This document shows, in pieces, positions 1,415 to 34,069 of a stretch of DNA of 35,187 nt. The stretch is from NCBI GenBank assembly GCA_048938005.1, contig JBHLMQ010000033.1, forward strand, positions 1 to 35,187, given 5' to 3'. The translations under genes were made by a program, and so were the position numbers. The number at the start of each line of letters is the position of its first letter. Positions within the stretch are counted from its first letter, which is position 1. Below the pieces are notes generated by a model. That model had not been told where the DNA came from, searched no databases, and worked only from the letters and a program-made list of their open reading frames with translations. The stretch comes from Promethearchaeota archaeon (GTDB lineage: Archaea > Asgardarchaeota > Lokiarchaeia > Sigyniarchaeales > SOKP01).

Positions 1415-2743
1415 ATGCAATTGTTTAAAAGGAAGGATAATAAAAAATTTGTACCAGAGGATCATAAGTTCACTTCAGATTTCAATTCAGTGATTTTTAT
1501 AGTGGTTTGGAATTCATTAGGCTTCTTTTTTATCGAATTCATAATGGCTTATTTAATTAAACAGGTTTTAAATTATCCTGCACCAAATCTCGGTTTATTT
1601 TTTTCATTTATTACTCTTGGAGGTTTAATTAGCTCATCTTTTATTGGATATTTAACTGATCGTTTTTCTAAGCGAATTTTAATTATGATAGGTTCTTTTG
1701 GCAGAGGTTTATCTTACTTTGGACTCTATATTTCAATAATGCTATATTCTTTAATAGGAATGTATATTAGTGCATTTCTATTAGGTCTGGGAGCATATAT
1801 TTTCTGGAATCCATTGGATTCTTTAATTTCTGAAAAATCTTCAAAATATTATCGATCTTCTGCTTTTGGAAAGAGAAGATTTGCCTTAGGCATCGGAATG
1901 GTGCTTGGAACAATAATAGGATTCACTATCTTTAGTATAGCGAATATTTTTACACCATTTAATGATTTTATAATATATGGTGCAATTCCAATATATGGTA
2001 TTGCTAATTTTTACGCAGGAATCCAATTCTCGCGAAAAGTGGATGAAACAATGAAATTTGAAAATCTCCATGATAATAAAAATCCAAATACTTTAATAGA
2101 ACAAGATTTCGAACTTTCTATTAAGCTATCTAGAACAGCACAAATGAAATTTTATTTTTTAGGTATTATTTTAATATTTGCGGGTTTATCTTTAAGTGCG
2201 ATTAATGTAGGGGTATATAGACCCTATATCCAACCCTACATTATTGAAAATATTAATAGTAATCCTTCTATAGTCTCTTGGTTTTATCTTCCAACATTTA
2301 TTATTGGATCTCTTATTGCCCCAAAATTAGGGACTATAGCAGATAAAACTAATCCACTTTTAGCCATCTCAGTTGCTAGTTTTCTAGGTGGAATTATCAC
2401 TTGGTTGATTATCAATTCGGGAAACTTAGCGATTTTTAGCTTTTTACTCGTATTAGATCAAACAATTATGTTAACAACAGGTTTTGTGATGGTAAATGTT
2501 CTGAGTCGTGTTTCAGTTAAACATCGCGGAAAAATCTTCGGATTAATTACTTTTCTTGAATCTATTGGAATGATTATAGGTCCTATTTTAGGCGGAATCA
2601 TATGGGAAAGTATAAGTCCACAAGCTCCCTTTATGATTTCAATTATTGTTGAGTGGTCTTTAATACCTTTTTTTGTTATAGGGATCCATATTATCAATCC
2701 TTATATTGTTGAATCTATAGACAATAAGAAAAATTTAATATAA
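1415..2743 (+). CDS. MFS transporter
   Basis: About 12 TM segments; motif A-like GYLTDRFSKR and GTIADKTNP; HRGKIFG...GPILGG in the C-terminal half. Confidence 0.9.
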   Translation: MQLFKRKDNKKFVPEDHKFTSDFNSVIFIVVWNSLGFFFIEFIMAYLIKQVLNYPAPNLGLFFSFITLGGLISSSFIGYLTDRFSKRILIMIGSFGRGLSYFGLYISIMLYSLIGMYISAFLLGLGAYIFWNPLDSLISEKSSKYYRSSAFGKRRFALGIGMVLGTIIGFTIFSIANIFTPFNDFIIYGAIPIYGIANFYAGIQFSRKVDETMKFENLHDNKNPNTLIEQDFELSIKLSRTAQMKFYFLGIILIFAGLSLSAINVGVYRPYIQPYIIENINSNPSIVSWFYLPTFIIGSLIAPKLGTIADKTNPLLAISVASFLGGIITWLIINSGNLAIFSFLLVLDQTIMLTTGFVMVNVLSRVSVKHRGKIFGLITFLESIGMIIGPILGGIIWESISPQAPFMISIIVEWSLIPFFVIGIHIINPYIVESIDNKKNLI

Positions 2744-2758
2744 TTTAATTTAAACTTA

Positions 2759-3295
2759 TTAATACCATTCGATAAACTCGTCTAAAGAACGCCTATTTCT
2801 TTCTTTCCTGTGTACTTTTTCTCGAGCTTCATCTATGTATCCTACAGCAATAATTCCCATAAGTTCAAATTTATCCGTTGGAAATTTGAATATCTCATTT
2901 ACTTCTTCTTTTTTGTTCAAAATTTCACCAATCCAAGCAGCACCAAGATCTTCCTGAGCATGAACCCCTAAAAGGATATTTTGCATAAAAGCTCCAATCG
3001 CTTGAATATCCTTTACTCTATCGAAACCTCTTTCAAGATCTAAAAACATAACGAAATTTACATATGCATCTTCTATAATTCCACCATATTTAGTGAGCTC
3101 TGAAAGCATTCTCTTAACAGTTGGATGGGTTACTATACAAACACGCCATGGTTGGCTATTATTTCCAGAAGGTGCCCATCTCGCGCATTCTAATATATTT
3201 AAAATGGTTTCCTTATCAATCTTTTGATAAATAAAGCTTCTAATGCTTCTTCTTTTCTTAATAAATTCTAAGAAATCATTTTTAACTAGATCCAT
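2759..3295 (-). CDS. Nitroreductase-family flavoprotein
   Basis: RRSIRSF, ARWAPSGNNSQPW and LMGIIAVGY motifs. Likely start is MDLVK (ATG at 3295); the ORF track extends it to 3319. Confidence 0.9.
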   Translation of the reverse strand: MDLVKNDFLEFIKKRRSIRSFIYQKIDKETILNILECARWAPSGNNSQPWRVCIVTHPTVKRMLSELTKYGGIIEDAYVNFVMFLDLERGFDRVKDIQAIGAFMQNILLGVHAQEDLGAAWIGEILNKKEEVNEIFKFPTDKFELMGIIAVGYIDEAREKVHRKERNRRSLDEFIEWY

Positions 3296-3438
3296 ATTTA
3301 AAACATTGGTAAATATCATAATATAAATTTTTCCTAAAATACAAAGTCTTCTGGGTAATATTTAGATATTCTCTCAATATTTCTTCTATTTATGTTTAAT
3401 AGGAATTATTAATAGGGTGAATATAAGAGGTTTTAAAT

Positions 3439-3783
3439 ATGGGCAAGTTTTGGGGAAAAAAAGATGATAATGACTTATTGGGTTCTCCACAAGAAACTAT
3501 GGGCTTTTCTAAGGAATATTCTTCATTACTTCAAAATTTTATAATAAAGAAATATGATTTCTCTAATCTAGCCCAAGTAGAAGATATCAAAAAGCAATTA
3601 TTAGGAAGGAAAATTTTAATAATTAATGCGAAAGAAATCCTTAAAAATGTTGATGTTTCAGAACTTAAAAGAGGGATTGAGGATATAAAGTCATTTTTAA
3701 GGGAAAACGGGGGTAGCATGGGACGCCTTGGAGATCAATATTTAGTAATAACCCCAAATGCACATGTTAAAATAGCTAATTAA
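3439..3783 (+). CDS. sepF: Archaeal-type cell division protein SepF
   Basis: Short amphipathic N-terminus (MGKFWGKK), then ILIINA...ELKRGIEDIK...GGSMGRLGDQYLVITP...VKI, matching the archaeal SepF pattern. Confidence 0.8.
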   Translation: MGKFWGKKDDNDLLGSPQETMGFSKEYSSLLQNFIIKKYDFSNLAQVEDIKKQLLGRKILIINAKEILKNVDVSELKRGIEDIKSFLRENGGSMGRLGDQYLVITPNAHVKIAN

Positions 3784-3930
3784 AAAATATATTATATCTA
3801 TTAATTTATTATATGTATAAGTAAAGCTAAAATCGTTTTTTTTATATAATCTCCTTTTCTTCTATTCTCAACCAAGATGTTTTCATAGATATTCAATCAA
3901 ATATTAAAACAAATATATGTTTAATAAAAT

Positions 3931-5604
3931 ATGGTTGAAAAATCATATGAATGGTGGCAAAATACAGTAGTTTATCAAGTTTACCCTCGATCCTTTAAAG
4001 ATTCCACTGGAAATGGAATTGGAGATATTCCTGGTATTATTAAAAAATTAGATTACTTGAAGGAATTAGGGATAGAAACGATATGGTTTAGTCCTTTTTT
4101 TGAATCTCCTCAACAAGATCATGGTTATGATATATCGAATTTTCGTGAAATTGACCCAGTTTATGGAACTATGAGGGATTTTGATAAATTATTAAAAGAA
4201 ATCCATGAGAGAAATATGAAAATTGTTTTAGATCTTGTACTTAATCATACTTCAGATAAACATCCATGGTTCTTAGAATCCGCTTCCAGTAAAGATAATC
4301 CAAAACGAGATTGGTATATTTGGAGAAATGGGAAAAAACCTAAAGGAAAGAGGCCACCAAACAATTGGAAAACATTCTCAGGAGGTTCAGCTTGGCGTTA
4401 TTATGAAAATACGGATCAATGGGTATATTTTCATTTTCTTCCTTTCCAACCAGATTTAAATTATAGAAATCCAGATGTTAAAGAAGAAATACTCGATACT
4501 ATGCGATTTTGGTTAGATAAAGGAGTTGATGGATTTCGATTGGATATGATACATACAATATACGAGGATATTGAATTAAGAAATAATCCTTTTACTTGGA
4601 CTTTGACATTTTCTGATAAAAAATCAGCATCATGGTTTCAACTCCATAAATACGATGTAAATCTTCCTGAGACATTTGAATTTGTATTAAAATTACGACA
4701 AATAATGGAAGAATACGAACCTGAGAGATTCTTGATCGGTGAAGTTTTTGGCTTTTTAGAAGATTTAAGAAAATATTATGGATCAAATAATAATGGCCTA
4801 AATATGAGTTTTCTATTTGAGTTTACATCTGCAGTATTATCATTTAGTCCAAGAAAAATTGCTAAAATCATCTCTAAAATCGAGCAAATCTTACCTCCAC
4901 CTTATACACCAACTTATGTGCTTGGAAATCATGATCGAGACAGATATATTTCTCGCCTAAAGAATGACATTCAAAAAGCAAAAACTATTGCTACATTTCA
5001 GTTAACATTAAGAGGAGTTCCTTATATATATTATGGAGAAGAAATTGGAATGTCTGACGTGAAATTTGACTTAAAAACAAGCGAAGATCCATTAGGACGC
5101 AAACTTGCAAAATTCCCCGTTCCTCAAGTTGCGAAATTATTTAGATTTTCTTTAACAAGAGATAGATGCAGAACTCCTATGCAATGGAATGCTGATCCTA
5201 ATGCGGGATTCTCATCCAATCCTGATGCTCAGACATGGTTAAAAGTCTCAGAAAATTATAAAAAAATTAACGTTGCTAAAGAAAAGGAAGATCCTAGTTC
5301 TTTGTTAAATTGTTATAAAAGACTATTAAAAATTAGAAGAGAAAACATCGTACTACAAGAAGGAAAATTTGAGTTTATTGAACTAGGGAAATTGAGTAGG
5401 AAAAGTTTAGCTTATAAAAGAATTCATGACACACAGGAAATTTTTATCTATTTGAATTTTTCAAACAAGGAGATATTATTAAAAACTCCAGTTCAAAGAC
5501 CAAAACTAATTTTTTCGACATTATCTAATAGAACAGCTTTAAATCCAGAAATATATAATGGAAATATCAAAGTATTACCACTTGAGGGAATTATTTTTAA
5601 ATAA
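3931..5604 (+). CDS. GH13 alpha-glucosidase / oligo-1,6-glucosidase
   Basis: WW..VVYQVYPRSF, DHGYDIS, DLVLNHTS, QPDLN, GVDGFRLD (catalytic Asp), GEV (Glu), NHD (Asp), YYGEEIGM, RD.CRTPMQW. Confidence 0.95.
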   Translation: MVEKSYEWWQNTVVYQVYPRSFKDSTGNGIGDIPGIIKKLDYLKELGIETIWFSPFFESPQQDHGYDISNFREIDPVYGTMRDFDKLLKEIHERNMKIVLDLVLNHTSDKHPWFLESASSKDNPKRDWYIWRNGKKPKGKRPPNNWKTFSGGSAWRYYENTDQWVYFHFLPFQPDLNYRNPDVKEEILDTMRFWLDKGVDGFRLDMIHTIYEDIELRNNPFTWTLTFSDKKSASWFQLHKYDVNLPETFEFVLKLRQIMEEYEPERFLIGEVFGFLEDLRKYYGSNNNGLNMSFLFEFTSAVLSFSPRKIAKIISKIEQILPPPYTPTYVLGNHDRDRYISRLKNDIQKAKTIATFQLTLRGVPYIYYGEEIGMSDVKFDLKTSEDPLGRKLAKFPVPQVAKLFRFSLTRDRCRTPMQWNADPNAGFSSNPDAQTWLKVSENYKKINVAKEKEDPSSLLNCYKRLLKIRRENIVLQEGKFEFIELGKLSRKSLAYKRIHDTQEIFIYLNFSNKEILLKTPVQRPKLIFSTLSNRTALNPEIYNGNIKVLPLEGIIFK

Positions 5605-5639
5605 GCCAAGAAAAATAAAAAACTTTTAAAAAAATTAAA

Positions 5640-6899
5640 TTATCTTTTCTTTCTTTCTCTTAGAATTTCTATGAAGCTTTCTATTTTATTAAGTACTTGA
5701 GTTTCATTTAATTTTCGTGGATCATTCATATCAGCATCAATAACAAGAGTTGGAATATCCGCTTCGTCCATTAGTTTACGCTTCAAATCATACATACCGC
5801 AAGCATTTGGTCTACATGACATATTATTATGTAGTAAAACCCCATCTATTTTCCAATCTCTTACGGTTTCTTTGAATTTCTCGAATCTTGTCTCTAAATC
5901 GTATATATACCAAAAACTAAGCATTAACTCTGCCATGCATTCTACGGGATTATTAAGAACATCATTTTTTGTAACATTTGGATTTGTATATTTTGTAAAA
6001 GCATATACATAAGGTTCATAAACAATAATCGCATTCCATCGTTCGAGATTCGAAAAGAACTTCAAATTATACCAAAATGGAATCCCTTCAAACATTAATC
6101 TATAATCTTCTTGTTCTAATGCTCCAATTCCATTATCTACACGTTGTTTTGCTTCACGATACATCCGTTTATATAACTTAATAGGTGATTTTAACCCTGT
6201 CATTGTAAATAACGGAAATAATCCCCCAAATGTATCTCTTGTAGAAACAGGGCAAGGTATATTTTTTCGTAATTCAAAAACATCCTGCCATATTTTCCCC
6301 ATTTCATATGAATTTTGAGCAATTTCTTGTGCTTTCTCTTTATCGTATTCATTCCCTGTGATTTCAGTAATGAAATCTAATAATTCCCAGAGTTGTTCTC
6401 TTATATATTTTTTGAAATAATCTCGCTGCCTATTATTTGTATTACTTACTACATGAGGTACATCAATAGTGAAATGTGGAACATTAAATCTTTCTGCTTG
6501 TACTTGAAACCAATTAACATGAGTATCACATATTACGTCACTCGACATCATAAATGTTGGCTTGCGAGTTCCACCTATACTCATATCAGCTTTACTTAAC
6601 ACAGCACCTACATTTGTCTTAAAATATGAACAGAGATCATAAGAGAATCCCTCATCTTCAGCTAGTTCGATGAAATTCTGAGAGTGCTTGAGAGCTGCTG
6701 AAATCGTAGCAGAATTTTCCGGTAACATTGGTTGAACATCCATAGCATATAAAAGTTCAACGGGTGTACCTGCTGTTGCCCATGCTGTAGGTTTACCTTC
6801 CCTATAGGCTTGTTCAATTGCTAAATAATGTCTACCCATTTCATTTCGTAATTTATTCGTCGCATTTAACATTTTACCACTTTTTTTTATGTTCGACAT
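5640..6899 (-). CDS. 2-hydroxyacyl-CoA dehydratase alpha-type subunit (HgdA/FldB/BcrB family)
   Basis: PVELLYAMD, PEN, DLCSY, ICDT, IDGVLLHNNMSCRP and DADMNDPR motifs with Fe-S cysteines. Confidence 0.88.
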   Translation of the reverse strand: MSNIKKSGKMLNATNKLRNEMGRHYLAIEQAYREGKPTAWATAGTPVELLYAMDVQPMLPENSATISAALKHSQNFIELAEDEGFSYDLCSYFKTNVGAVLSKADMSIGGTRKPTFMMSSDVICDTHVNWFQVQAERFNVPHFTIDVPHVVSNTNNRQRDYFKKYIREQLWELLDFITEITGNEYDKEKAQEIAQNSYEMGKIWQDVFELRKNIPCPVSTRDTFGGLFPLFTMTGLKSPIKLYKRMYREAKQRVDNGIGALEQEDYRLMFEGIPFWYNLKFFSNLERWNAIIVYEPYVYAFTKYTNPNVTKNDVLNNPVECMAELMLSFWYIYDLETRFEKFKETVRDWKIDGVLLHNNMSCRPNACGMYDLKRKLMDEADIPTLVIDADMNDPRKLNETQVLNKIESFIEILRERKKR

Positions 6900-8730: not shown

Positions 8731-9105
8731 ATGAATAATCTAGAAGTAAAGAATCTAAATAAGGAACTAGAACGATTAGAATATTTTGAAGATATTGTTG
8801 GTACAGCTATAGTAAATCGGAATGGGCTATTAATTTCTTCGAGATTACCCAGAAACATTGATGAAAGAAGATTTGGAGCAATGGCAGCTAGTTGTTATTT
8901 TGGAATAGAAACAGCAGCTTCAACTATTGGAGCAAGTGAAATTAATCATCTAACAGTTGAATTTAATGAATATCAGTTAATAATAATGGAAGCAGATGAA
9001 AATTTAATTTTAGTTTCATTAGTAGATTATAATGCTAATTTAGGTTTAATTTTTATTGAAATTGAAGAGAGTATAAAAAATATAAAACAAATATTAAATA
9101 GGTGA
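8731..9105 (+). CDS. Roadblock/LC7 domain protein
   Basis: IVGTAIVNRNGLLISS, FGAMAAS, LTVEF, ANLGLIF roadblock pattern; 124 aa. Confidence 0.9.
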   Translation: MNNLEVKNLNKELERLEYFEDIVGTAIVNRNGLLISSRLPRNIDERRFGAMAASCYFGIETAASTIGASEINHLTVEFNEYQLIIMEADENLILVSLVDYNANLGLIFIEIEESIKNIKQILNR

Positions 9106-9111
9106 TTTAAT

Positions 9112-9849
9112 ATTTTAACTGAAAAACAAAAGGAAAGATATTCAAGACAAATTATATCTCCTTTAATTGGAGAAGAAGGGCAAGAAAAACTTTCTAAAAT
9201 TAAAGTATTACAAATTGGAGCAGGAGGGTTAGGTTCACCTTTTGCATTATACCTCGCAGCCGCCGGAATAAACGAATTAACTATAATTGATAATGATGTA
9301 TTAGATATCACTAATTTGCAAAGACAAATTCTTTATAATGAAACTCAAATCGGAGAAGATAAGATTAAATCTGCAAAAGAAATATTATCAAAACTTAATT
9401 CAGATGTTCAGATTAACACTTATAAGGATTATGTTGATGAGAATTCCGTAAAGAAATATTTAAAGGAAACTAAATATGATTTTATAGTTGATTGTAGTGA
9501 TAATTTTAAAACAAAATTTTTAGTGAATAAAATTGCTGTAGAGAATAATTTACGATGTGTAATTGCTGGTATAAAGGACTTTTATGGTCAAATAATGACT
9601 ATTAACCCGAGAAACACTGCGTGCTATCAATGTGTCTTCTCCCCAATAGAAACTCCTCCTGATGAAGGCCCCTTACCTGTAATTGGGGTTACTCCCGGGA
9701 TTTTAGGAACATTAGAAGCTCTAGAAGTGATAAAAACAGTTTTAGGGCTACCTAACTTGGAAAATAAGGTTCTAATGGTTAATCTAATAGATTTAAGGTT
9801 TAATATTATAGAGATTGTAAAGAATGAAAAATGTATTTGCTCGATATAG
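9112..9849 (+). CDS. ThiF/MoeB/UbaA-family E1-like activating enzyme (probable ATT start)
   Basis: The frame is open from 9106. (M)LTEKQKERYSRQI..IGEEGQEKL...LQIGAGGLGSP..YLAAAG...IIDND...TNLQRQ lies upstream of the ORF-track TTG at 9316. Also DCSDNF, CYQC and a C-terminal CIC. Confidence 0.9.
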   Translation: MLTEKQKERYSRQIISPLIGEEGQEKLSKIKVLQIGAGGLGSPFALYLAAAGINELTIIDNDVLDITNLQRQILYNETQIGEDKIKSAKEILSKLNSDVQINTYKDYVDENSVKKYLKETKYDFIVDCSDNFKTKFLVNKIAVENNLRCVIAGIKDFYGQIMTINPRNTACYQCVFSPIETPPDEGPLPVIGVTPGILGTLEALEVIKTVLGLPNLENKVLMVNLIDLRFNIIEIVKNEKCICSI

Positions 9850-10579: not shown

Positions 10580-12307
10580 ATGGAAGGAAATTTACAATTC
10601 ATATATAAAAAAGAATACTGGTACATTAGTGCATTTATTAATACCAATGAGTTTATTGGAGAAACTAAAGCAGAAGAAATAGAAGCTCTATTATTAGAGA
10701 GATTAAAAAATCTAAGTGATAAGGAATTAGAAAAAGCAATTGCATTTTTAGAAAAACTTCCTCATGCTGAAGAAAAGAGAAGTATATTAATAGAAATGAC
10801 TAAATCCGTTTCAATTGAATGTGATTGGGAACCATTTTTTCAAAATTTCCCTTATACCGATGAGGATAACCCATATACCGAAGACAACAAAGATTTAATT
10901 TATAATACTTTGGGTTTCTTCAAATTAGAAGTAGAATATTTCAAAAATGAGCCATTTAAAAAAGAAAAAATAACACCAGATTTAATCCAACAAGTACCCT
11001 TTATAGTTCTTGATATCCTTAAGGAATTTAGTAAAGAAAAAAAAAATCAATATCTACTTCTTGATACGGAGAGCCCGATTTATGTTTTCGTTATATCCAC
11101 TAAAACAACCCCGATAGACGTTCAATGGGATGAGGAAAATGTGTACAAATACAAAAGAGTTCTTGGATATTGGAACCAAATTTATGCTGGTCAATGGCGA
11201 GATTATAGTGAGGATCTTTTTGAGAGAAGGGTCAAAAAAAATCTATCGAATCGTGTAACTGAATTGCATTATATTAAGAGAAATTCTGGATTTATTTTTA
11301 TGGCAGAAAAAAACTTCGAAACAGAGTTTTCATACATAAAAGACCACATATTAGAACCAACACCAAAAATGAGAGCAGTATTATTCGCATTAATGACAAT
11401 TAATCATTCTCTTGATGTGTTATTTATGAAAAGATATTCTGATGTCTTTATGAGCTTAGAAAAAATTGAACAAAAAACTAAAAATCTCAGATTTTTAAGA
11501 GGAATGATCCAGACTAAGATGAGCCTTATTTATAATGAATTAGATTGGAATCCACGTCAACATTATACAAGAGTTTTAACCCACTTGATAAAAAAATTCC
11601 GTATTGAAGAGATAATAAGAAGAACAAATGAAAAATTCAGTATGCTGTATGATTCTATGCAGGAGTTATATTCAAAAAGAAATGAAGAAAACCAAAAGAG
11701 AACTAAGAAAGCACTTTACTTCTTGAATATCTTATTAGGCGCAGGATTCATAGTAGAATTTATTAATACTATAAGAATAGCTACTGGTTTACAAGAAACA
11801 GTTCCACCTTGGCCTTTAGTACATGGGATAATTTCATTAATTTTGGGATCATTTTTGCTTCTTACTATTGGTTATTTTGTATATAGCAGATACAAATTAA
11901 AAGTTTCAGAACTGGGACATACTGTTGATGCTGTTATTCAAGATGATGACCAAAATGTCATATTAATAAAACGAAAATTTGCTCCTTATAAGGGAAAATA
12001 TGCACTTCCTGGGGGATTTATGAAATATAATGAAGATCCAGAACAAGCTTTAATCAGAGAAGTAAGAGAAGAAACCAACCTAGCTGTAGAGATTCTTAAA
12101 AAGATTGGGATATATGATCAAAAAGGACGAGATCCACGAGGTAGAGTTGTATCAACAGCATTTAAATGCCGTATAGTAAAAGATCTTTCAAGAATGAAAG
12201 GTGGAGACGATGCTCTTGTTGCTGAAGCTATACAAATCGATAAAATCAGATTAATAGATTTAGCTTTTGATCATAAGCAAATATTAAAGGATGCTGGTAT
12301 TTTGTAA
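10580..12307 (+). CDS. Membrane protein: soluble N-terminal region, long helical stalk, 2 TM helices (CorA-like layout) and a C-terminal NUDIX hydrolase
   Basis: Nudix box GFMKYNEDPEQALIREVREETNL, plus TVDAVI, LIKRK..PYKG.YALPGG, RDPRGRVVS, GDDA and LAFDH, as in ADP-ribose pyrophosphatase/NrtR-type Nudix domains. Two hydrophobic helices lie at about 11712-11883. The CorA-like call is an inference. Confidence 0.8.
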   Translation: MEGNLQFIYKKEYWYISAFINTNEFIGETKAEEIEALLLERLKNLSDKELEKAIAFLEKLPHAEEKRSILIEMTKSVSIECDWEPFFQNFPYTDEDNPYTEDNKDLIYNTLGFFKLEVEYFKNEPFKKEKITPDLIQQVPFIVLDILKEFSKEKKNQYLLLDTESPIYVFVISTKTTPIDVQWDEENVYKYKRVLGYWNQIYAGQWRDYSEDLFERRVKKNLSNRVTELHYIKRNSGFIFMAEKNFETEFSYIKDHILEPTPKMRAVLFALMTINHSLDVLFMKRYSDVFMSLEKIEQKTKNLRFLRGMIQTKMSLIYNELDWNPRQHYTRVLTHLIKKFRIEEIIRRTNEKFSMLYDSMQELYSKRNEENQKRTKKALYFLNILLGAGFIVEFINTIRIATGLQETVPPWPLVHGIISLILGSFLLLTIGYFVYSRYKLKVSELGHTVDAVIQDDDQNVILIKRKFAPYKGKYALPGGFMKYNEDPEQALIREVREETNLAVEILKKIGIYDQKGRDPRGRVVSTAFKCRIVKDLSRMKGGDDALVAEAIQIDKIRLIDLAFDHKQILKDAGIL

Positions 12308-13410: not shown

Positions 13411-14508
13411 TCATGAACTAGAAGTCAATATGTTAAAATTTAACTCTAATTTTGAGCTATTTAAAATGGCTTCTTGCAGCATTTTACCTTCTTGTGATAG
13501 GGTTAATTTTTGAGATTTTGCCACTCCTTCCATCAATTTTTCTCTCTCTATATCTAAAAAGCCCATTTCTATTGCATTCTTTATGATTAGATTTAATACT
13601 AATAATTGAAATTGTTCATGAATAGCATCCCATATTAAACCCATTTCCTTTAACTGATTAGCTATTTCTTCAGCTATAATATCCAGATCATAAATCATAT
13701 CATAAATACCTTCTTGGAGATTAATAATTTCATCCATTAATTTATCTTTAATGAGCCTTAGGGTTGTAGTCCCTAATAAATCTTCTTCATGAAAATAAAA
13801 ATCATTATTTTTGCGTTTAATTAAATAAAACCCAAAATCATTTTTTATTAATTTAACTCTAGCTAAGTAGTTAATAGCTTCTCTTGAAACATTATAGACT
13901 TCACAAAACTCGTCTAAATTTAATTTATAACCACCAAACTCTTGAGAACTTGACTCGTCAAAATGCCAATATTTTCGTGCAAATGCTCCTTGACCTAAAA
14001 TTGAATTATAAAAAATGTAAAAAAGTGATAAATATAAATCTCTATCTTGTTGTAATTCAAAAAAATTATCTCCTATTTTGGAGATGATCCTTACTATATG
14101 AATTATAAATGGATCTTCCACACTTATTTCTTTGTAAAAATCTATTAAGTCCTCGAGTTTTCTGACATTTTCTTTTAATTCATTAACAATAAATAACTCA
14201 TCTTTTAGTTTTAAAGGTTCCTCTCCAAGTTTCTCTATTCCTTTTTCAGTAATTACATAACTCCTGTACTGCTTATTTGTTTTTCTGTCTGTAATTAACC
14301 TTTGTTCTATATTTTTATTTTTTCTATGAAAACTCAGATATTTAGAAACAGTAGATCTACTTAAATTAGAATATTTTACTAAATTAGTAAATCTTTGTGG
14401 ACCTAAATTTCTAAGGATAAATAATATCCGTCTACTATTATCTTCAATATTGCTAGATTTTTTTAGTAACTCAATCTTTAACTTTTTTGATATATTCCAG
14501 CTTTCCAT
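13411..14508 (-). CDS. Winged-helix DNA-binding protein with an uncharacterised C-terminal region
   Basis: ILFILRNLGPQRFTNL...LSRSTVSKYL...Y.ITEKG is a typical MarR/HxlR/ArsR-like wHTH. Confidence 0.75.
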   Translation of the reverse strand: MESWNISKKLKIELLKKSSNIEDNSRRILFILRNLGPQRFTNLVKYSNLSRSTVSKYLSFHRKNKNIEQRLITDRKTNKQYRSYVITEKGIEKLGEEPLKLKDELFIVNELKENVRKLEDLIDFYKEISVEDPFIIHIVRIISKIGDNFFELQQDRDLYLSLFYIFYNSILGQGAFARKYWHFDESSSQEFGGYKLNLDEFCEVYNVSREAINYLARVKLIKNDFGFYLIKRKNNDFYFHEEDLLGTTTLRLIKDKLMDEIINLQEGIYDMIYDLDIIAEEIANQLKEMGLIWDAIHEQFQLLVLNLIIKNAIEMGFLDIEREKLMEGVAKSQKLTLSQEGKMLQEAILNSSKLELNFNILTSSS

Positions 14509-14698
14509 AATAATATGATATAAACCTGGATATAAAAATATATACTTTTTTTTTGGACTTAGACTAAAATAATATAAAAATACAAATATTAATCATTTTA
14601 GTATATATTAGGGATAATAATAAGTAAAATTTAATAAATAAGAGTTTAATGTTAGAAATTGGAATATTATTCAAAATTAAATGATAATTTAATAACAT

Positions 14699-14896
14699 AT
14701 GACAATAGAAGATCCTAATATTTTAAAACGAATAAAAACAATTGAAGAAAGGTTAGATACAATTGAAGAACGTTTATCACGTTTAGAAAATAGATTGGGT
14801 CGCTTTCCATCTCCTCCATCTCCAAAACCCAGTCCAATACATCCTCCAGGACCCCCTGGTCCACCAGGACCTCCTCCAGAGCCTTTTCGATTTTAA
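14699..14896 (+). CDS. Small coiled-coil protein with a proline-rich (PPG)3 tail
   Basis: Heptads IKTIEERLDTIEERLSRLENRL followed by PSPPSPKPSPIHPPGPPGPPGPPPEP. The tail is locally GC-rich in AT-rich surroundings, consistent with coding. Confidence 0.75.
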   Translation: MTIEDPNILKRIKTIEERLDTIEERLSRLENRLGRFPSPPSPKPSPIHPPGPPGPPGPPPEPFRF

Positions 14897-15050
14897 AATA
14901 TTATTAGAAAATCATTTAGAGCAAAAAAAGCAATTTTCATCTTTTTTAAACTGAAGTTCGGTTTATTGAACGAAAATCCTTAATTAATCAATTTTTTAAT
15001 TATTATTTAATATAAATCAATTATAAATCATAAAAAGGGTGTGATTAAAA

Positions 15051-15305
15051 ATTACCCAATATAGATTTAGGCTAACCGGAGTCCCTCCAGATCAAGCGAT
15101 AAAGCTCATTGAGTTAGATCCAAACAATTCAATTGCAGAAATTAAAAAAACTGTGCAACGTGAATATAAATTAAACCCAATCTTAGCGATACAATTTATC
15201 TTTAAAGGTAAAGTCTTGCCTGATCAGTTAAAATTCGCAAAGATAGGAATTCATCCAAAAAAAGATGTCATTACGGTAATGGCTACGCAAGCAGGCGGAG
15301 TTTAA
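15051..15305 (+). CDS. Ubiquitin-like (beta-grasp) protein ending in GG-V (probable ATT start)
   Basis: Manual translation: (M)TQYRFRLTGVPPDQAIKLIELDPNNSIAEIKKTVQREYKLNPILAIQFIFKGKVLPDQLKFAKIGIHPKKDVITVMATQAGGV*. FIFKGKVLPD resembles ubiquitin LIFAGKQLED; diglycine near the C-terminus. An SD-like GGGTGTGA ends 6 nt before the ATT. Confidence 0.85.
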   Translation: MTQYRFRLTGVPPDQAIKLIELDPNNSIAEIKKTVQREYKLNPILAIQFIFKGKVLPDQLKFAKIGIHPKKDVITVMATQAGGV

Positions 15306-15345
15306 GTAATCCATTAATTGGAGACGTATTTATCACGGGGTTTAT

Positions 15346-15375
15346 AAGAGAAAAAAGTGGCTTATTTTTTCTCTT
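15346..15375. terminator. Hairpin between the convergent Ubl and longin genes
   Basis: AAGAGAAAAAA-N8-TTTTTTCTCTT perfect 11-bp inverted repeat followed by T-rich sequence. Confidence 0.45.
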
Positions 15376-15408
15376 CTTTTCTTATTTTTTTAATAACGTT
15401 AATAGTGA

Positions 15409-15834
15409 TTATTGTTCTAGATAATAGACATTCTTGAAATCCTTGAATTTTGTATCAAGAATTTGAATAATTTGATTAGAAAAAGATTTGAATTTAGAAA
15501 TTTCTCCATTAAAATCCTCTAAATAATCTTTATAATTTTCCAAGAAGTTATCAATTATAGTTTCAGAAAATAATTCTAGCTTTTTTTTATCAACCTCTTT
15601 GTTATCACATTTAAGAACTAAGTGAAAACCAGATATGTGGTTATAAAAGAAAAAGATAAAACTATCTAAGGTTAACATTTTCAAGCTTTCTTTAAACTCG
15701 CGCTTTGTAAAGCGACAAATTATATCAAAATAACTTGCTAGGGATTGTTCATCATCTAATCTATTGTTATTCAAAAAATCATGATAAAATAAGGCGAGTC
15801 CTGCTTGATTAATTATCATTAATTCTTGAATCAT
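15409..15834 (-). CDS. Longin-domain protein
   Basis: MIQELMIINQAGLALFYHDF...L..YFDII.RF....F.ESL..L.L....F.F.....F.LVL...F...Y...L..FNGEISKF..F...I..IL, a typical Asgard longin pattern. Confidence 0.8.
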   Translation of the reverse strand: MIQELMIINQAGLALFYHDFLNNNRLDDEQSLASYFDIICRFTKREFKESLKMLTLDSFIFFFYNHISGFHLVLKCDNKEVDKKKLELFSETIIDNFLENYKDYLEDFNGEISKFKSFSNQIIQILDTKFKDFKNVYYLEQ

Positions 15835-16137
15835 TTTGACTCTTTTAACGTTTCAAGTCTTTCTTAATTATCCGATATATTCTTATTAAATTCAATTATT
15901 TGAGATTTTTTATTACCTAACTTATGTTACAAGTTGTTTTTAAACTTTTATTTAAGAATTTATTTAGTTCAAAATAATTTTTTCAATTACAATATCCGTA
16001 TAAATTGAATATTTAGATTCCTATTATCCATTTAATATTAAAATAGAAAATAGCTCCTTTGTTGCCTTAAAAAAAAGGAAATATTCACATAAACCGGGAT
16101 ATTAGAAAAAAAAAGGAATATACAATAATAATGAATT

Positions 16138-18631: not shown

Positions 18632-19249
18632 ATGGAAGAAAAGACATCAGATAATTTAGAAAAAGTACAGATAAAAGGTATTGTTAATAACAATAAGGTT
18701 ATTATTTTAGATCCTAATGGAATTCAAGAATTTTACGAGAATTCTTATATTGGTACCATTGAAAAGAATGATAAAAATGCTGAAGTTTTAGTTTTAGAGC
18801 CAATTGAAGTACTTCTTTTAATTGAACGTAATAGAATACTACTATGGAAGGATAATGATGAAAATAATGTTCAATATAATTTTGAGACGGCACTTGAACA
18901 TTTTACTCAATATGATCAACGCTTATGGCAAAAATACATCATTTATATGGATTTGAGAAAAAGAGGATACATCGTTCGCACTGGTTATGGGAATGGCTTA
19001 GATTTTCGTGTGTATAAGAGAGGGGCTGATTTTGAAAAAGATTCAGCGAAGTTTTTAATATTTCCTGTATTTGAAGGGGATCCTATTGAACTTCGAGATT
19101 TAGATAAGATGTCCAGAGTTGCTATGAGTTCCCGAAAGGATTTAATTGTCGCGACAGTTGATAGATTGAGTAAGCCCATTTACTACAGCGTTAAAAAGTT
19201 CCAGATTTTAAATAAAGGAGAAAATAACGAAAAGAATAATGACGGATAA
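18632..19249 (+). CDS. endA: tRNA-splicing endonuclease subunit
   Basis: L...E.L.L.E, Y.IY.DLRKRGY.V.TG...G.DFRVY, RVA.S.RK.LI.A.VD; the catalytic His is not evident. Confidence 0.88.
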   Translation: MEEKTSDNLEKVQIKGIVNNNKVIILDPNGIQEFYENSYIGTIEKNDKNAEVLVLEPIEVLLLIERNRILLWKDNDENNVQYNFETALEHFTQYDQRLWQKYIIYMDLRKRGYIVRTGYGNGLDFRVYKRGADFEKDSAKFLIFPVFEGDPIELRDLDKMSRVAMSSRKDLIVATVDRLSKPIYYSVKKFQILNKGENNEKNNDG

Positions 19250-33304: not shown

Positions 33305-34069
33305 TTAATGTTCATGCCCTCCAATTGCTAGTATAAATGCCATAATTACAATACCTAATACGACTAATATCAATTGTTTTATGATTTCTTTAGTGCCTGT
33401 TTTTTCATGTAATTGTGGAGTTAAATCTGATAATGCTATATAAATAAAACTAGCTGATGAGATTGCCAAAAATATTGGTATAAGAAAGTTTAAAATTCCA
33501 ATAATGTAATAACTAATAATGGCAGCAGGTATCGTAGATAAACTAGATATTAAATTATAGATAAATGCTTTTTTTTTTTGCATTCCACTATGAATAAGTA
33601 TACCAAAATCACCTGTCTCCTGAGGGATCTCATGAATTATTATTGTAATACTGACTGCAATACCAATATTGAAATCTGTAATAAAAGCAGTTGCAATAAG
33701 AATTCCATCTGTAAAATTATGAAAAGCATCTCCTACCAGAATTATTGGTACTGATGCTTGACTATGAACTTCACAACTATTATTTTGACAATTCCGCCAA
33801 ATTAAAACTTTTTCTAAGAAAAAGAAAAACAGAATACTTCCTAGTACAAAATACATAATTAAATGAGGTTCACCAGCAGAACTCTCGATTGCTTCAGGAA
33901 TTAAGCCTAAAAATGAAGCAGTAAGTAATGTTCCTGTTGCAAATGAAATTAATGCAGAAACTATAACTTTTTGTATACTTTCTTTAAAGAGAATGAATCC
34001 CGAAGCAGCAAATATAGCACCTACACTTCCTAGAGTTGCAAATAATATTATCCAAACTAAAATAGGAAT
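33305..34069 (-). CDS. ZIP-family metal (Zn/Fe) transporter (probable ATT start)
   Basis: GDAFHNFTDG and HEIPQETGDF signatures. The frame extends 71 codons upstream of the ORF-track ATG (33856) through (M)PILVWIILFATLGSVGA...ALISFATGTLLTASFLGLIPEA, which are the ZIP TM1-TM2 helices. Confidence 0.9.
   Translation of the reverse strand: MPILVWIILFATLGSVGAIFAASGFILFKESIQKVIVSALISFATGTLLTASFLGLIPEAIESSAGEPHLIMYFVLGSILFFFFLEKVLIWRNCQNNSCEVHSQASVPIILVGDAFHNFTDGILIATAFITDFNIGIAVSITIIIHEIPQETGDFGILIHSGMQKKKAFIYNLISSLSTIPAAIISYYIIGILNFLIPIFLAISSASFIYIALSDLTPQLHEKTGTKEIIKQLILVVLGIVIMAFILAIGGHEH

What the first reader, a model, noticed from the sequence alone, without database searches (positions are those of the whole stretch)
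15051..15305. Hidden ubiquitin-fold gene with a SUMO-like C-terminus that would need maturation
Seen: an 84-aa frame missed by the ORF caller, ending IQFIFKGKVLPD...DVITVMATQAGG-V*. Known: human SUMO2 ends IRFRFDGQPI...DTIDVFQQQTGG-VY, the same D-x-I-x-V-x3-Q-x-G-G-V pattern, whereas ubiquitin ends LRLRGG. A residue after GG must be removed by a protease before conjugation. Inference: an Asgard Ubl precursor with mixed ubiquitin and SUMO features, possibly under-annotated because of its start codon.
Basis: partly seen in the sequence, partly recalled or inferred. Interest (0 to 1): 0.85.

Follow-up and report, generated by a model that had tools for sequence, protein, structure and literature searches.

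The report
Hidden AUU-start ubiquitin-like gene, Lokiarchaeia
This is a real, very strongly conserved ubiquitin-type gene of Lokiarchaeia (Asgard archaea) that gene callers miss because it starts with ATT instead of ATG; it resembles ubiquitin rather than SUMO.

Summary
The 84-codon frame at 15051-15305 (+) is real. It opens after an in-frame TGA and has no ATG/GTG/TTG before codon 35. Its ATT sits where most orthologues have Met1, 9 nt behind a GGTG Shine-Dalgarno. It matches Pfam ubiquitin above cut-off (36.8 vs 25.4 bits). The model is a confident beta-grasp (pLDDT 92.8) and the protein ends in a floppy ..ATQAGG-V.

Strong orthologues (about 66-100% identity) occur in 136 of 160 genomes of its own class and nowhere else in the phylum. 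Codon differences are 1228 synonymous to 162 non-synonymous.

After GG, homologues have no residue or any of 15 residues, as eukaryotic polyubiquitin precursors also do. The SUMO-like reading is therefore not supported. The SUMO model scores below cut-off, no SUMO chain is among the 60 best solved-structure matches, and no Ulp/SENP protease was found.

Best reading: a stand-alone, conjugatable ubiquitin-family modifier, AUU-initiated, trimmed after GG (probably by a JAMM protease) and activated by one of the genome's E1/E2 sets. Conjugation is inferred, not shown.

Two side findings:
- ATT/ATA/ATC starts behind GGTGA look widespread in this genome.
- Some orthologues, not this copy, carry a 30-nt bulge-helix-bulge intron inside the coding sequence.

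The parts
15007..15018 (+). A/T-rich TATA-like box about 33-44 nt upstream of the start codon (possible archaeal promoter)
   Evidence: Read from the sequence. A similar A/T box stands at the same distance in same-genus loci. Inference only; no transcript start was mapped.
15037..15045 (+). Shine-Dalgarno-like GGGTGTGAT; its GGTG core (15038-15041) lies 9 nt before the start codon
   Evidence: The genome's 16S rRNA ends ..GGATCACCTCCT, so GGTGAT-type motifs are complementary to it. By eye, 19 of 26 ATT-start orthologous loci carry GGTG within 16 nt upstream.
15042..15044 (+). In-frame TGA that closes the reading frame upstream
   Evidence: Between this stop and residue 5 the only near-cognate start codon is the ATT.
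15051..15053 (+). ATT (AUU) start codon
   Evidence: It aligns with Met1 of most homologues (MTQYRFRL...). Among 42 other loci the homologous codon is ATT in 26, ATG in 13 and TTG in 1. In 24 of the 26 ATT loci an in-frame stop lies 2-9 codons upstream with no ATG/GTG/TTG between.
15051..15305 (+). Coding sequence of an 84-aa ubiquitin-family protein (stop TAA at 15303-15305)
   Evidence: Purifying selection is shown by 1228 synonymous against 162 non-synonymous codon differences.
15294..15299 (+). Codons of Gly82-Gly83, the putative conjugation end
   Evidence: G82 is invariant and G83 is at least 90% conserved in a 52-sequence alignment. Residues 81-84 have low model confidence, consistent with a flexible tail.
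15300..15302 (+). Codon of Val84, an unconstrained residue after GG that would have to be removed before conjugation
   Evidence: Of 108 homologues with a recognisable ..GG end, 23 have no residue after GG, 55 have one, 8 have two and 22 have three or more. The first residue takes 15 different identities.
15346..15391 (+). Hairpin followed by T-runs; a likely transcription terminator shared with the convergent downstream gene
   Evidence: Fold of 15300-15400: -17.6 kcal/mol, z = -1.89, which is weak. The T-runs are read.

Best explanation
The frame 15051-15305 encodes a stand-alone ubiquitin-family (beta-grasp) modifier that is specific to, and nearly universal in, the class Lokiarchaeia. In this genus it is translated from an AUU start codon placed 9 nt behind a GGTG Shine-Dalgarno. 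It is made as a short precursor (..ATQAGG-V). The residue after GG is clipped, most likely by one of the genome's JAMM/MPN+ metalloproteases. The exposed Gly83 is then adenylated by a ubiquitin-type E1 and passed through an E2 to lysines of target proteins. The leading E1/E2 candidate is the class-restricted pair on contig C76, which has no Ubl gene of its own nearby. Shown here: the gene, the start codon, the fold, the GG end, strong purifying selection, and the presence of E1, E2 and JAMM genes. Inferred: C-terminal trimming, which protease does it, which E1/E2 act on it, and conjugation itself.
For: Gene and start: the frame is open only from TGA 15042-44. The ATT aligns with Met1 of homologues. 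At the homologous codon, 26 of 42 other loci have ATT, 13 ATG and 1 TTG. Residues 5-13 are invariant or nearly so, so translation must begin upstream of them. Codon differences are 1228 synonymous against 162 non-synonymous.

Fold and family: PF00240 scores 36.8 bits against a 25.4 cut-off, and 52 of 52 family members match it. The AF2 model has pLDDT 92.8 and pTM 0.82 with beta-beta-alpha-beta-beta-3/10-beta order. Foldseek gives ubiquitin 1ubq TMq 0.76, NEDD8 0.76 and Caldiarchaeum ubiquitin 0.75-0.77. The phmmer alignment to ubiquitin puts the invariant I50, G53, K54 and K32 opposite ubiquitin I44, G47, K48 and K27.

Modifier hallmarks: G82 is invariant and G83 at least 90% conserved. The tail is floppy in the model. 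The residue after GG is unconstrained: 23 of 108 homologues have none, and the rest show 15 identities. Paralogues in the wider family often end exactly in GG, and one (P0215) has the domain inside an E2.

Conservation: strong matches occur in 136 of 160 genomes of the class (f1-f7). Outside it there are only weak hits, in 18 of 31 genomes of two families, and 0 elsewhere. The Ubl is 96-100% identical within the genus while its neighbours are 59-94% identical.

Enzymes in the same genome: five ThiF E1-like genes, three UQ_con E2s above cut-off and seven JAB proteins. The clusters on C97 and C9 each have their own Ubl. The C76 E1/E2 pair has none in the 10 kb scanned. Strong C76-type E1 matches have the same class-restricted distribution: 141 of 160 in the class against 0 of 239 outside. 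In G281 the match to this E1 is a 980-aa double-ThiF gene lying 1.4 kb from the Ubl.

Precedent: Caldiarchaeum ubiquitin precursor is processed by an Rpn11-type JAMM (PMC6043591; only the search listing and the start of the abstract were seen).
Against: No enzyme gene is linked to the Ubl beyond the family level. The nine loci from other genera or families that were compared share no neighbour but the Ubl itself. The E1 adjacency in G281 is a single case. Shared class-restricted distribution is weak evidence, because related genomes are not independent and many genes are class-specific. No RNA or protein data were obtained. Neither conjugation nor trimming has been shown for this family. Against the family profile, the best single-domain solved relative is the Get5/Mdy2 UBL (34 bits), which is a non-conjugated adaptor domain. 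Cysteine-protease DUB families were searched only as C48, UCH and OTU, and the OTU search rang in no control genome, so it says little.
Confidence: 0.6

Rival explanations
1. A SUMO-like or hybrid ubiquitin/SUMO modifier, matured by a Ulp/SENP-type protease.
For: The tail is uncharged Q-A-G-G followed by V. The Rad60-SLD model matches 32 of 52 family members at E<=0.01. SUMO2/3 chains appear among the Foldseek hits.
Against: Rad60-SLD scores 15.2 bits for this protein, below its 23.8 cut-off, while the ubiquitin model scores 36.8. All 52 members match PF00240. No SUMO chain is among the 60 best profile hits in the PDB. SUMO TMq is 0.62-0.71, against 0.74-0.77 for ubiquitin and NEDD8. Peptidase_C48 gave 0 hits. 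The V after GG is not conserved. Polyubiquitin precursors also carry one variable residue after GG. The protein starts directly at strand 1, without an N-terminal arm.
Confidence: 0.04
2. A non-covalent ubiquitin-like adaptor (as the UBL domains of Get5/Mdy2 or RAD23) whose GG end is incidental. It would work by binding partners, not by conjugation.
For: The best single-domain solved relatives of the family profile are the Get5/Mdy2 UBL (34 bits, E 2.3e-7) and the RAD23B UBL (27.6 bits). There is no linked enzyme gene. The very high surface conservation would also fit a multi-partner binder.
Against: G82 is invariant and G83 nearly so, at the end of a flexible tail, while whatever follows is unconstrained. 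That pattern is expected for a processed conjugation end and not for an adaptor. Get4 was not found above cut-off (best 14.7 bits against 30). The protein is a free 84-aa Ubl, not a domain of a larger adaptor.
Confidence: 0.15
3. A SAMP/Urm1-style modifier or sulfur carrier, activated by a small MoeB/UbaA-type E1 without an E2. One candidate is the ATT-start E1-like gene 5 kb upstream in the window (9112-9849).
For: A 245-aa ThiF/MoeB-like E1 (225.9 bits) lies in the same window and also starts with ATT behind AGGTGAT. Archaeal SAMPs are beta-grasp proteins ending in GG (recalled knowledge).
Against: No ThiS/MoaD/Urm1 Pfam match at E<=1. In four of five other genomes the best homologue of this E1 lies 0.67-3.8 Mb from the Ubl or on another contig, and 14 kb away in the fifth. 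That E1 is only 42-47% identical in genomes where the Ubl is 70-80% identical.
Confidence: 0.15
4. Not a functional gene: a decaying remnant that lost its start codon.
For: No ATG/GTG/TTG start before codon 35.
Against: The full-length frame is intact in all 30 best-matching loci. The ratio of synonymous to non-synonymous codon differences is 1228:162. The ATT start state is shared by 26 loci, usually with a strong Shine-Dalgarno. Other essential-looking genes of this genome show the same start type.
Confidence: 0.01

Closest known systems
Eukaryotic ubiquitin / NEDD8 (Pfam PF00240)
   Same: Same fold (TMq 0.76) and a Pfam match above cut-off. It has a C-terminal GG on a flexible tail. The invariant L8-T9-G10, I50, G53 and K54 lie opposite ubiquitin L8-T9-G10, I44, G47 and K48 (the ubiquitin residue names are recalled). 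The precursor carries a variable residue after GG, as polyubiquitin does.
   Different: Only about 20% identity. The tail is ATQAGG, not LRLRGG. There is an extra helical turn (VPPDQA) after strand 1. It is a single-copy gene, neither a polyubiquitin nor a ribosomal-protein fusion. Conjugation is not shown.
Caldiarchaeum subterraneum ubiquitin with its Rpn11-type JAMM protease (PDB 6fnn; PMC6043591, PMC5654768)
   Same: An archaeal ubiquitin-family protein and the top Foldseek hit (6fnn_C, TMq 0.75). Its precursor is processed at GG by a JAMM enzyme according to the abstract. This genome encodes 7 JAB proteins.
   Different: The Caldiarchaeum gene sits in a Ub-E1-E2-RING-Rpn11 operon. This gene stands alone, while a separate operon of that kind, with its own unrelated Ubl (17% identity), lies on contig C97.
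SUMO (Pfam PF11976 Rad60-SLD)
   Same: Beta-grasp fold, an uncharged Q-x-G-G tail, and a precursor with residues after GG.
   Different: It scores below the Pfam cut-off. It is not among the best 60 profile hits in the PDB. No Ulp/SENP was found. There is no N-terminal arm. The residue after GG is not conserved.
Get5/Mdy2 (UBL4A) and RAD23 UBL domains
   Same: The highest single-domain sequence scores against the family profile (34 and 27.6 bits), with a shared ..KGKVL.D.. core.
   Different: Those are internal, non-conjugated adaptor domains without a terminal GG. No Get4 partner was found above cut-off.
Archaeal SAMPs / Urm1 / MoaD-ThiS
   Same: Small beta-grasp proteins ending in GG; a MoeB-type E1 is present in the window.
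   Different: No ThiS/Urm1 family match, and the E1 linkage is not conserved.
Bulge-helix-bulge intron of crenarchaeal cbf5 mRNA (PMC2738675). Relevant to orthologues, not to the window copy.
   Same: A short intervening sequence inside a protein-coding gene, folding into two 3-nt bulges around a 4-bp helix. EndA and RtcB are encoded in the genomes concerned.
   Different: A different gene (a Ubl), a different phylum (Asgard), only 30 nt long, and found at two different sites. Splicing was not observed.

Membership tests
Ubiquitin family (PF00240, type-1 Ubl modifiers) | Match to the family model above its curated cut-off | tested here: met
   36.8 bits against 25.4; 52 of 52 aligned family members match.
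Ubiquitin family (PF00240, type-1 Ubl modifiers) | Beta-grasp fold | tested here: met
   AF2 model with pLDDT 92.8: E2-8, E17-22, H28-38, E45-51, H62-65, E73-80. Foldseek probability is 1.00 to ubiquitin, NEDD8 and archaeal ubiquitin. This is a predicted structure, not a solved one.
Ubiquitin family (PF00240, type-1 Ubl modifiers) | Gly-Gly at the end of a flexible C-terminal tail | tested here: met
   G82 invariant and G83 at least 90% conserved; mean pLDDT of residues 81-84 is 55.
Ubiquitin family (PF00240, type-1 Ubl modifiers) | ATP-dependent activation by an E1 and isopeptide attachment to targets | not testable with these tools
   E1, E2 and JAMM genes are present, but no biochemical data exist.
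SUMO (PF11976) | Match to the SUMO-type model above its cut-off, and closer to SUMO than to ubiquitin | tested here: not met
   15.2 bits against 23.8. No SUMO among the 60 best PDB profile hits. TMq 0.62-0.71 against 0.74-0.77.
SUMO (PF11976) | A cognate Ulp/SENP (Peptidase_C48) protease | tested here: not met
   0 hits at E<=0.1 in the 95.3%-complete genome. Absence from an incomplete genome is not proof.
SUMO (PF11976) | Phylogenetic grouping with SUMO | not tested
   No SUMO sequence could be obtained from the tools, so no tree was built.
SAMP / MoaD / ThiS / Urm1 | Match to the ThiS/MoaD or Urm1 models | tested here: not met
   None listed at E<=1.
Archaeal ubiquitin operon (Caldiarchaeum/Asgard type) | Ubl gene clustered with E1, E2 and JAMM genes | tested here: not met
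   The neighbours are a wHTH protein, a coiled-coil/Pro-rich peptide, a longin-like protein and NMO. No neighbour is shared across families. The genome's operon of this type is on C97.
Bulge-helix-bulge intron (orthologues only) | Two 3-nt bulges on opposite strands around a 4-bp helix, with flanking helices | tested here: met
   Seven distinct sequences: 89.9% of cells paired, against 33.6-53.8% when partners are slid. The central helix is 100% paired, with CG in 4 and UA in 3 sequences at one pair. Five pairs change on both sides. The motif definition is from passages of 10.64898/2026.10.13.758758.
Bulge-helix-bulge intron (orthologues only) | Spliced RNA observed | tested here: inconclusive
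   The single RNA run found did not cover the gene.

The most novel reading that the evidence does not exclude
This ultra-conserved stand-alone Ubl is the main ubiquitin-equivalent of Lokiarchaeia, and its production is gated after transcription in two unusual ways. In this genus it is initiated at AUU behind a strong Shine-Dalgarno. In other lineages the coding sequence carries a 30-nt bulge-helix-bulge intron, gained at two different sites just before the GG-bearing tail. That intron must be cut out by the tRNA-splicing endonuclease and rejoined by RtcB before a conjugatable protein can be made. This would be archaeal-type mRNA splicing of a eukaryote-signature gene in the closest prokaryotic relatives of eukaryotes.
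Probability: 0.5. Interest if true: 0.8.

Novelty: new member of a known kind. Interest (0 to 1): 0.6.

Why it matters
Ubiquitin-family genes in Asgard archaea are known, and public annotation already names relatives of this one 'ubiquitin-like protein'. The gene itself is therefore a new member of a known kind.

Three points matter beyond that:
- The family is class-wide and single-copy in most genomes. It is far better conserved than its neighbours, and it keeps ubiquitin's L8/I44/K48-equivalent positions. That makes it a strong candidate for the working ubiquitin of Lokiarchaeia and a concrete target for biochemistry in the cultured relatives.
- In this genus it is invisible to ATG/GTG/TTG gene callers. 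The same ATT/ATA/ATC start type appears at about 50 other long frames of this genome, so proteomes of these MAGs may be systematically truncated or incomplete.
The last Lys or Arg before GG is K71, so trypsin would leave a 12-residue remnant.

The intron-like inserts in orthologues, if spliced, would add a protein-coding substrate for the archaeal splicing endonuclease in Asgard archaea.

Tried and rejected
1. RNA evidence. One metatranscriptome run (X1) held 0.18 of the words of the intron-bearing metagenome contig L070. When laid on the contig, its contigs covered other parts but gave depth 0 over the Ubl gene (bins 3257-5920) and no joints. Nothing can be said about expression or splicing.

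2. Complex prediction of the Ubl with the C76-type E1 gave no verdict (score 0.17, mark 0.32). This is not evidence either way.

4. Linkage of the window's MoeB-like E1 to the Ubl is not conserved in five other genomes.

5. Get5-type reading: Get4 was not found above cut-off.

6. Rfam scan of 14500-15900 returned only a sub-threshold snoRNA-like match on the minus strand (27.4 against 50 bits).

7. UCH and OTU protease families gave no hits. The OTU search rang in no control genome, so it is uninformative.

8. A phylogeny with SUMO, NEDD8, Urm1 and SAMP was not built, because no sequences of SUMO, Urm1 or SAMP were available from the tools. Model scores and structure ranks were used instead.

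9. A first attempt to fit the insert to a bulge-helix-bulge with the cut directly at the codon boundary failed. Shifting both cuts by one base fits the motif and restores the invariant Thr codon.

10. Translational bypassing and stop-codon read-through were considered for the inserts. They were rejected because the stops are TAG in some inserts and TAA in another, and no matching take-off and landing codons exist.

11. Two slips were corrected: a search term that was too short (re-sent as 35) and a coordinate off by one (corrected).
Full report
OBSERVATION. Translating 15045-15305 gives LK-ITQYRFRLTGVPPDQAIKLIELDPNNSIAEIKKTVQREYKLNPILAIQFIFKGKVLPDQLKFAKIGIHPKKDVITVMATQAGGV, then a stop. An in-frame TGA at 15042-15044 closes the frame upstream. 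The first ATG/GTG/TTG is a GTG at 15153, so a standard ORF list shows only a 50-aa fragment. The window is about 29% G+C. It is contig C56 of a 3.72-Mb, 101-contig genome that is 95.3% complete with 7.2% contamination.

IT IS A REAL GENE THAT STARTS AT ATT.
- A word-based search of 5.8 billion proteins found 196 homologues at E<=0.001. The 120 listed are 72-98% identical. Where a source names them, they come from Lokiarchaeota/Promethearchaeota, and several are called 'ubiquitin-like protein'.
- Most begin M-(T/V/A)-Q-Y-R-F-R-L, so their Met1 falls on the window's ATT at 15051.
- I read the DNA of 42 other loci: the 29 best genome matches, which are all but one of the same genus, plus 13 that I picked from other genera or with inserts. 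The homologous codon is ATT in 26, ATG in 13 and TTG in 1. Two have a start shifted by a codon or two.
- In 24 of the 26 ATT loci an in-frame stop lies 2-9 codons upstream with no ATG/GTG/TTG between. The other two have a TTG or GTG 2-3 codons upstream.
- Six species of the same genus (L036, L038-L041, L043) have ATG at that very codon. ATT and ATG therefore interchange at one position among close relatives.
- Residues 6-10, 12 and 13 are invariant in a 52-sequence alignment. Translation must therefore begin upstream of them, and ATT is the only near-cognate codon available.
- Summed over the intron-less loci, codons differing from the window copy are synonymous 1228 times and non-synonymous 162 times.
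- The ATT is preceded at 9 nt by GGTG, within GGGTGTGAT at 15037-15045. The genome's 16S rRNA ends ..GGATCACCTCCT, so this is a Shine-Dalgarno.
- By eye, 19 of 26 ATT loci have GGTG within 16 nt upstream, against 0 of the 6 same-genus ATG loci. These genomes are related, so this is a pattern and not a statistic.
- Gene callers elsewhere either extended the frame upstream or cut it at residue 11 (P0035, P0076, P0099 and P0109).

WHAT THE PROTEIN IS.
- Pfam: ubiquitin family, 36.8 bits against a cut-off of 25.4. Rad60-SLD (the SUMO-type model) scores 15.2 against 23.8. There is no ThiS/MoaD/Urm1 match at E<=1.
- All 52 aligned members match PF00240, and 32 also reach E<=0.01 on Rad60-SLD.
- AlphaFold2 with the family alignment gives pLDDT 92.8 and pTM 0.82. 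The model is a classical beta-grasp: strands 2-8 and 17-22, helix 28-38, strand 45-51, a short helix 62-65, and strand 73-80. There is an extra helical turn at 13-16, and the last four residues have low confidence.
- Foldseek against the PDB gives probability 1.00 to many ubiquitin-fold chains: Caldiarchaeum ubiquitin 6fnn_C TMq 0.75, ubiquitin 1ubq 0.76, NEDD8 1ndd 0.76, the Get5 UBL 0.70, and SUMO1/2/3 0.62-0.71.
- A profile of the family against all PDB sequences ranks the Get5/Mdy2 UBL first among single domains (34 bits). RAD23B (27.6), ISG15 (about 21), Rub1 (18.5) and mono-ubiquitin (about 17 bits) follow. No SUMO chain is among the 60 shown.
- The phmmer alignment to ubiquitin places I50, G53, K54 and K32, all invariant in the family, opposite ubiquitin I44, G47, K48 and K27. 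The family's invariant L8-T9-G10 has the same numbering as ubiquitin's. The functional names of those ubiquitin residues are recalled knowledge.
- The protein is only 17% identical to the Ubl of the genome's own ubiquitin operon.

THE C-TERMINUS. G82 is invariant and G83 is at least 90% conserved. Of the 120 listed homologues, 108 have a recognisable ..GG end by my pattern. Of the other 12, four end in GG or GG plus one residue but miss my pattern at an earlier position, and the rest are truncated, frameshifted or variant. Of the 108:
- 23 stop right after GG;
- 55 have one more residue;
- 8 have two;
- 22 have three or more.

The first residue after GG takes 15 identities, with F and N the commonest and V only twice. 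Within the genus the rest of the protein is 96-100% identical, yet the endings are GG, GGV, GGI, GGA, GGF, GGS, GGY and GGFL. A conserved GG followed by anything or nothing is what a processed conjugation end looks like. It is not a SUMO mark. The eukaryotic polyubiquitin representatives found by the exhaustive search end LRLRGG plus Q, I, F, C, Y, N, L or A.

DISTRIBUTION AND CONTEXT.
- In 400 genomes of the phylum, strong matches (about 66-100% identity) are confined to the seven families of the window's class: 136 of 160 genomes, G000 excluded.
- Two other families give weak hits (11 of 12 genomes at E about 1e-6, and 7 of 19 at about 1e-3). All other families give none.
- Within the genus the order wHTH / coiled-coil-Pro peptide / Ubl / longin-like gene is kept. 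The Ubl is 96-100% identical while the neighbours are 59-94% identical.
- Nine loci from other genera or families share no neighbour at all within 1 kb. The gene is therefore monocistronic and not in an enzyme operon.
- An exhaustive profile search of 1.84 billion representatives found 267 proteins at E<=0.001, of which 96 are at E<=1e-10. This is a wide radiation of paralogues with the same FRLTGVPP signature. Many end exactly in GG, and some have the domain fused to other proteins.

ENZYMES. The genome encodes:
- five ThiF-type E1-like proteins;
- three UQ_con E2s above cut-off;
- seven JAB/MPN proteins;
- no Peptidase_C48, UCH or OTU (the OTU search rang nowhere and is uninformative).

Contig C97 has an operon Ubl(111 aa)-E1-E2-JAMM. 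Contig C9 has JAMM-E1-E2 plus its own small protein ending ..VIGG-NL. Contig C76 has an E2 (186 aa) and a 527-aa E1 with no GG-ended small ORF in the 10 kb scanned. Strong matches to that E1 (E<=1e-50) occur in 141 of 160 genomes of the class and in 0 of 239 outside it. In families f4-f7 the matches cover only its first 180 or so residues, within proteins of other lengths. In G281 (another family) the match is a 980-aa, double-ThiF E1 lying 1.4 kb from the Ubl. This makes the C76 pair my first candidate, but the evidence is circumstantial. The window's own MoeB-like E1 (9112-9849) is not linked to the Ubl in other genomes.

MECHANISM I COMMIT TO (confidence 0.6). The protein is AUU-initiated and made as a Ubl precursor. 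The residue after GG is removed by a JAMM protease, on the precedent of Caldiarchaeum ubiquitin and Rpn11 (PMC6043591; only the listing and the start of the abstract were seen). The protein is then activated by an E1 and conjugated through an E2 to lysines. The gene, the start, the fold, the GG end, selection and the presence of the enzymes are shown. Trimming, the identity of the enzymes and conjugation are inferred. The rivals are a non-covalent UBL adaptor (0.15), a SAMP-like E1-only system (0.15), a SUMO-like modifier (0.04) and a dead gene (0.01).

SIDE FINDING 1: ATT/ATA/ATC STARTS.
- The window's E1-like gene is open from 9106, but its first ATG/GTG/TTG is a TTG at 9316, 68 codons after the ATT. 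Its ThiF domain starts 9 residues after an ATT at 9112, which sits 7 nt behind GGTG within AGGTGAT.
- A ZIP-transporter frame on the minus strand (34069 down to 33305) likewise starts at ATT behind AAAGGTGAG, 71 codons before its first ATG.
- Genome-wide, I examined 3298 open frames of at least 120 codons. In 248 of them a GGTG-led candidate start codon lies within 12 codons of the upstream stop: ATG 75, ATT 50, ATA 49, TTG 42, ATC 18, GTG 12 and CTG 2.
- In 50 of those frames, an ATT, ATA, ATC or (once) CTG start is more than 10 codons ahead of the first ATG/GTG/TTG. Only the three window cases were checked by homology.
- The listings of one literature search showed no report of this in Asgard archaea.

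SIDE FINDING 2: A BULGE-HELIX-BULGE INTRON IN ORTHOLOGUES (NOT IN THE WINDOW COPY).
- Fourteen of the 120 listed homologues carry 10-12 extra residues between ..KKDVI and TVMATQAGG.
- In DNA, the 30-nt insert contains an in-frame TAG in two genomes of the window's genus (L045, L046) and in two metagenome contigs (L071, L072). A third genome (L047) has a 30-nt insert with TAA three codons further upstream.
- A pattern scan of metagenome contigs returned seven loci with five distinct sequences.
- The seven distinct site-A sequences fold alike. An outer exon-exon helix is followed by a 4-bp helix formed by the last exon bases and the 3' end of the insert. A 3-nt bulge lies on each strand, and an inner 9-bp hairpin follows.
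- On this structure 89.9% of cells pair, against 33.6-53.8% when partners are slid by 1-3 columns. The central helix pairs in 100% of cells and covaries (C-G in 4 sequences, U-A in 3). Five pairs change on both sides.
- This is the motif recognised by the archaeal splicing endonuclease, as defined in passages of 10.64898/2026.10.13.758758. Asgard archaea have the broad-specificity (alpha-beta)2 enzyme (passages of PMC5829648).
- Cutting after the second base of each bulge (a position recalled from the tRNA case) removes exactly 30 nt and yields ..D-V-I-T-V-M.. This restores the invariant Thr75 codon even where the unspliced in-frame reading gives Ala or Pro.
- All three intron-bearing genomes, and G000, encode two or three EndA-family genes and RtcB. 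One EndA subunit lies in this window at 18632-19249.
- Splicing itself was not observed.
- The listings of three literature searches showed only crenarchaeal cbf5 as a protein-coding example (PMC2738675; listing and abstract start), and none in Asgard archaea.

VERDICT. The gene is a new member of a known kind. Its extreme conservation, its AUU start and the intron-bearing orthologues give it more than routine interest.

Noticed in passing
Orthologous loci L045 (G181:C81), L046 (G212:C150), L047 (G281:C61) and metagenome loci L070-L076; not in the window: A 30-nt insert lies inside the Ubl coding sequence at two different sites just before the GG tail. Several inserts contain in-frame TAG or TAA. 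They fold into a bulge-helix-bulge motif with covariation. Removing the insert at the bulges restores the invariant Thr75 codon. It is probably an EndA/RtcB-spliced mRNA intron.
   Followed up: yes
window 9099-9849 (+): A MoeB/ThiF-type E1-like gene (245 aa) has no ATG/GTG/TTG start until a TTG 68 codons after the ATT. It starts at ATT 9112, 7 nt behind GGTG within AGGTGAT, directly after the stop of a Roadblock/LC7 gene (8731-9105). Standard ORF calling truncates it and loses the nucleotide-binding loop.
   Followed up: partly
window 33305-34069 (-), and genome-wide: A ZIP metal transporter also starts at ATT behind AAAGGTGAG, 71 codons before its first ATG. Genome-wide, 50 long frames show a GGTG-led ATT, ATA or ATC (once CTG) start well ahead of any canonical start. 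Non-canonical starts seem common in this genome, and its annotation is probably incomplete.
   Followed up: partly
window 18632-19249 (+): One of the two tRNA-splicing endonuclease (EndA family) subunit genes lies 3.3 kb downstream of the Ubl. The same arrangement is seen in G181, whose Ubl carries the intron (C81: Ubl at 11226, EndA match at 15498).
   Followed up: no
window 15409-15834 (-): The convergent neighbour is a 141-aa longin/Sybindin-like (TRAPP-type) protein, with a sub-threshold Pfam hit of 20.2 against 25 bits. It is conserved next to the Ubl within the genus only.
   Followed up: partly
window 14699-14896 (+): A 65-aa ORF has a coiled-coil N-terminus and a PPGPPGPPGPP tail. It is conserved upstream of the Ubl within the genus at 66-94% identity. 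Its function is unknown.
   Followed up: no
Proteins P0181, P0215, P0132/P0151 and P0134/P0136/P0139: Paralogues of the family occur as fusions. In P0181 the GG is followed directly by a Hint-like module (below cut-off, 24.2 against 29.7 bits). In P0215 the Ubl sits inside an E2. In P0132 and P0151 the GG is followed by a Cys-rich, zinc-ribbon-like region. In P0134, P0136 and P0139 the Ubl is embedded in 800-aa proteins.
   Followed up: partly
L077 (G281:C61) 1613-4555 (-), and L079 (G279:C1) 4489-6867 (-): These are 980-aa and 792-aa E1-like proteins with two ThiF stretches, reminiscent of the pseudo-dimeric eukaryotic E1 architecture. The first lies 1.4 kb from the Ubl gene.
   Followed up: partly
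L057 (G123:C118), downstream of the Ubl stop: The last codons of the gene (..ATQAGGF, stop, AS) are repeated three times in tandem after the stop codon.
   Followed up: no
G000:C9:64234-64515 (+): A small ORF ending ..VIGG-NL has no Pfam match. It lies beside a JAMM-E1-E2 cluster and is probably a third, divergent Ubl of this genome.
   Followed up: partly
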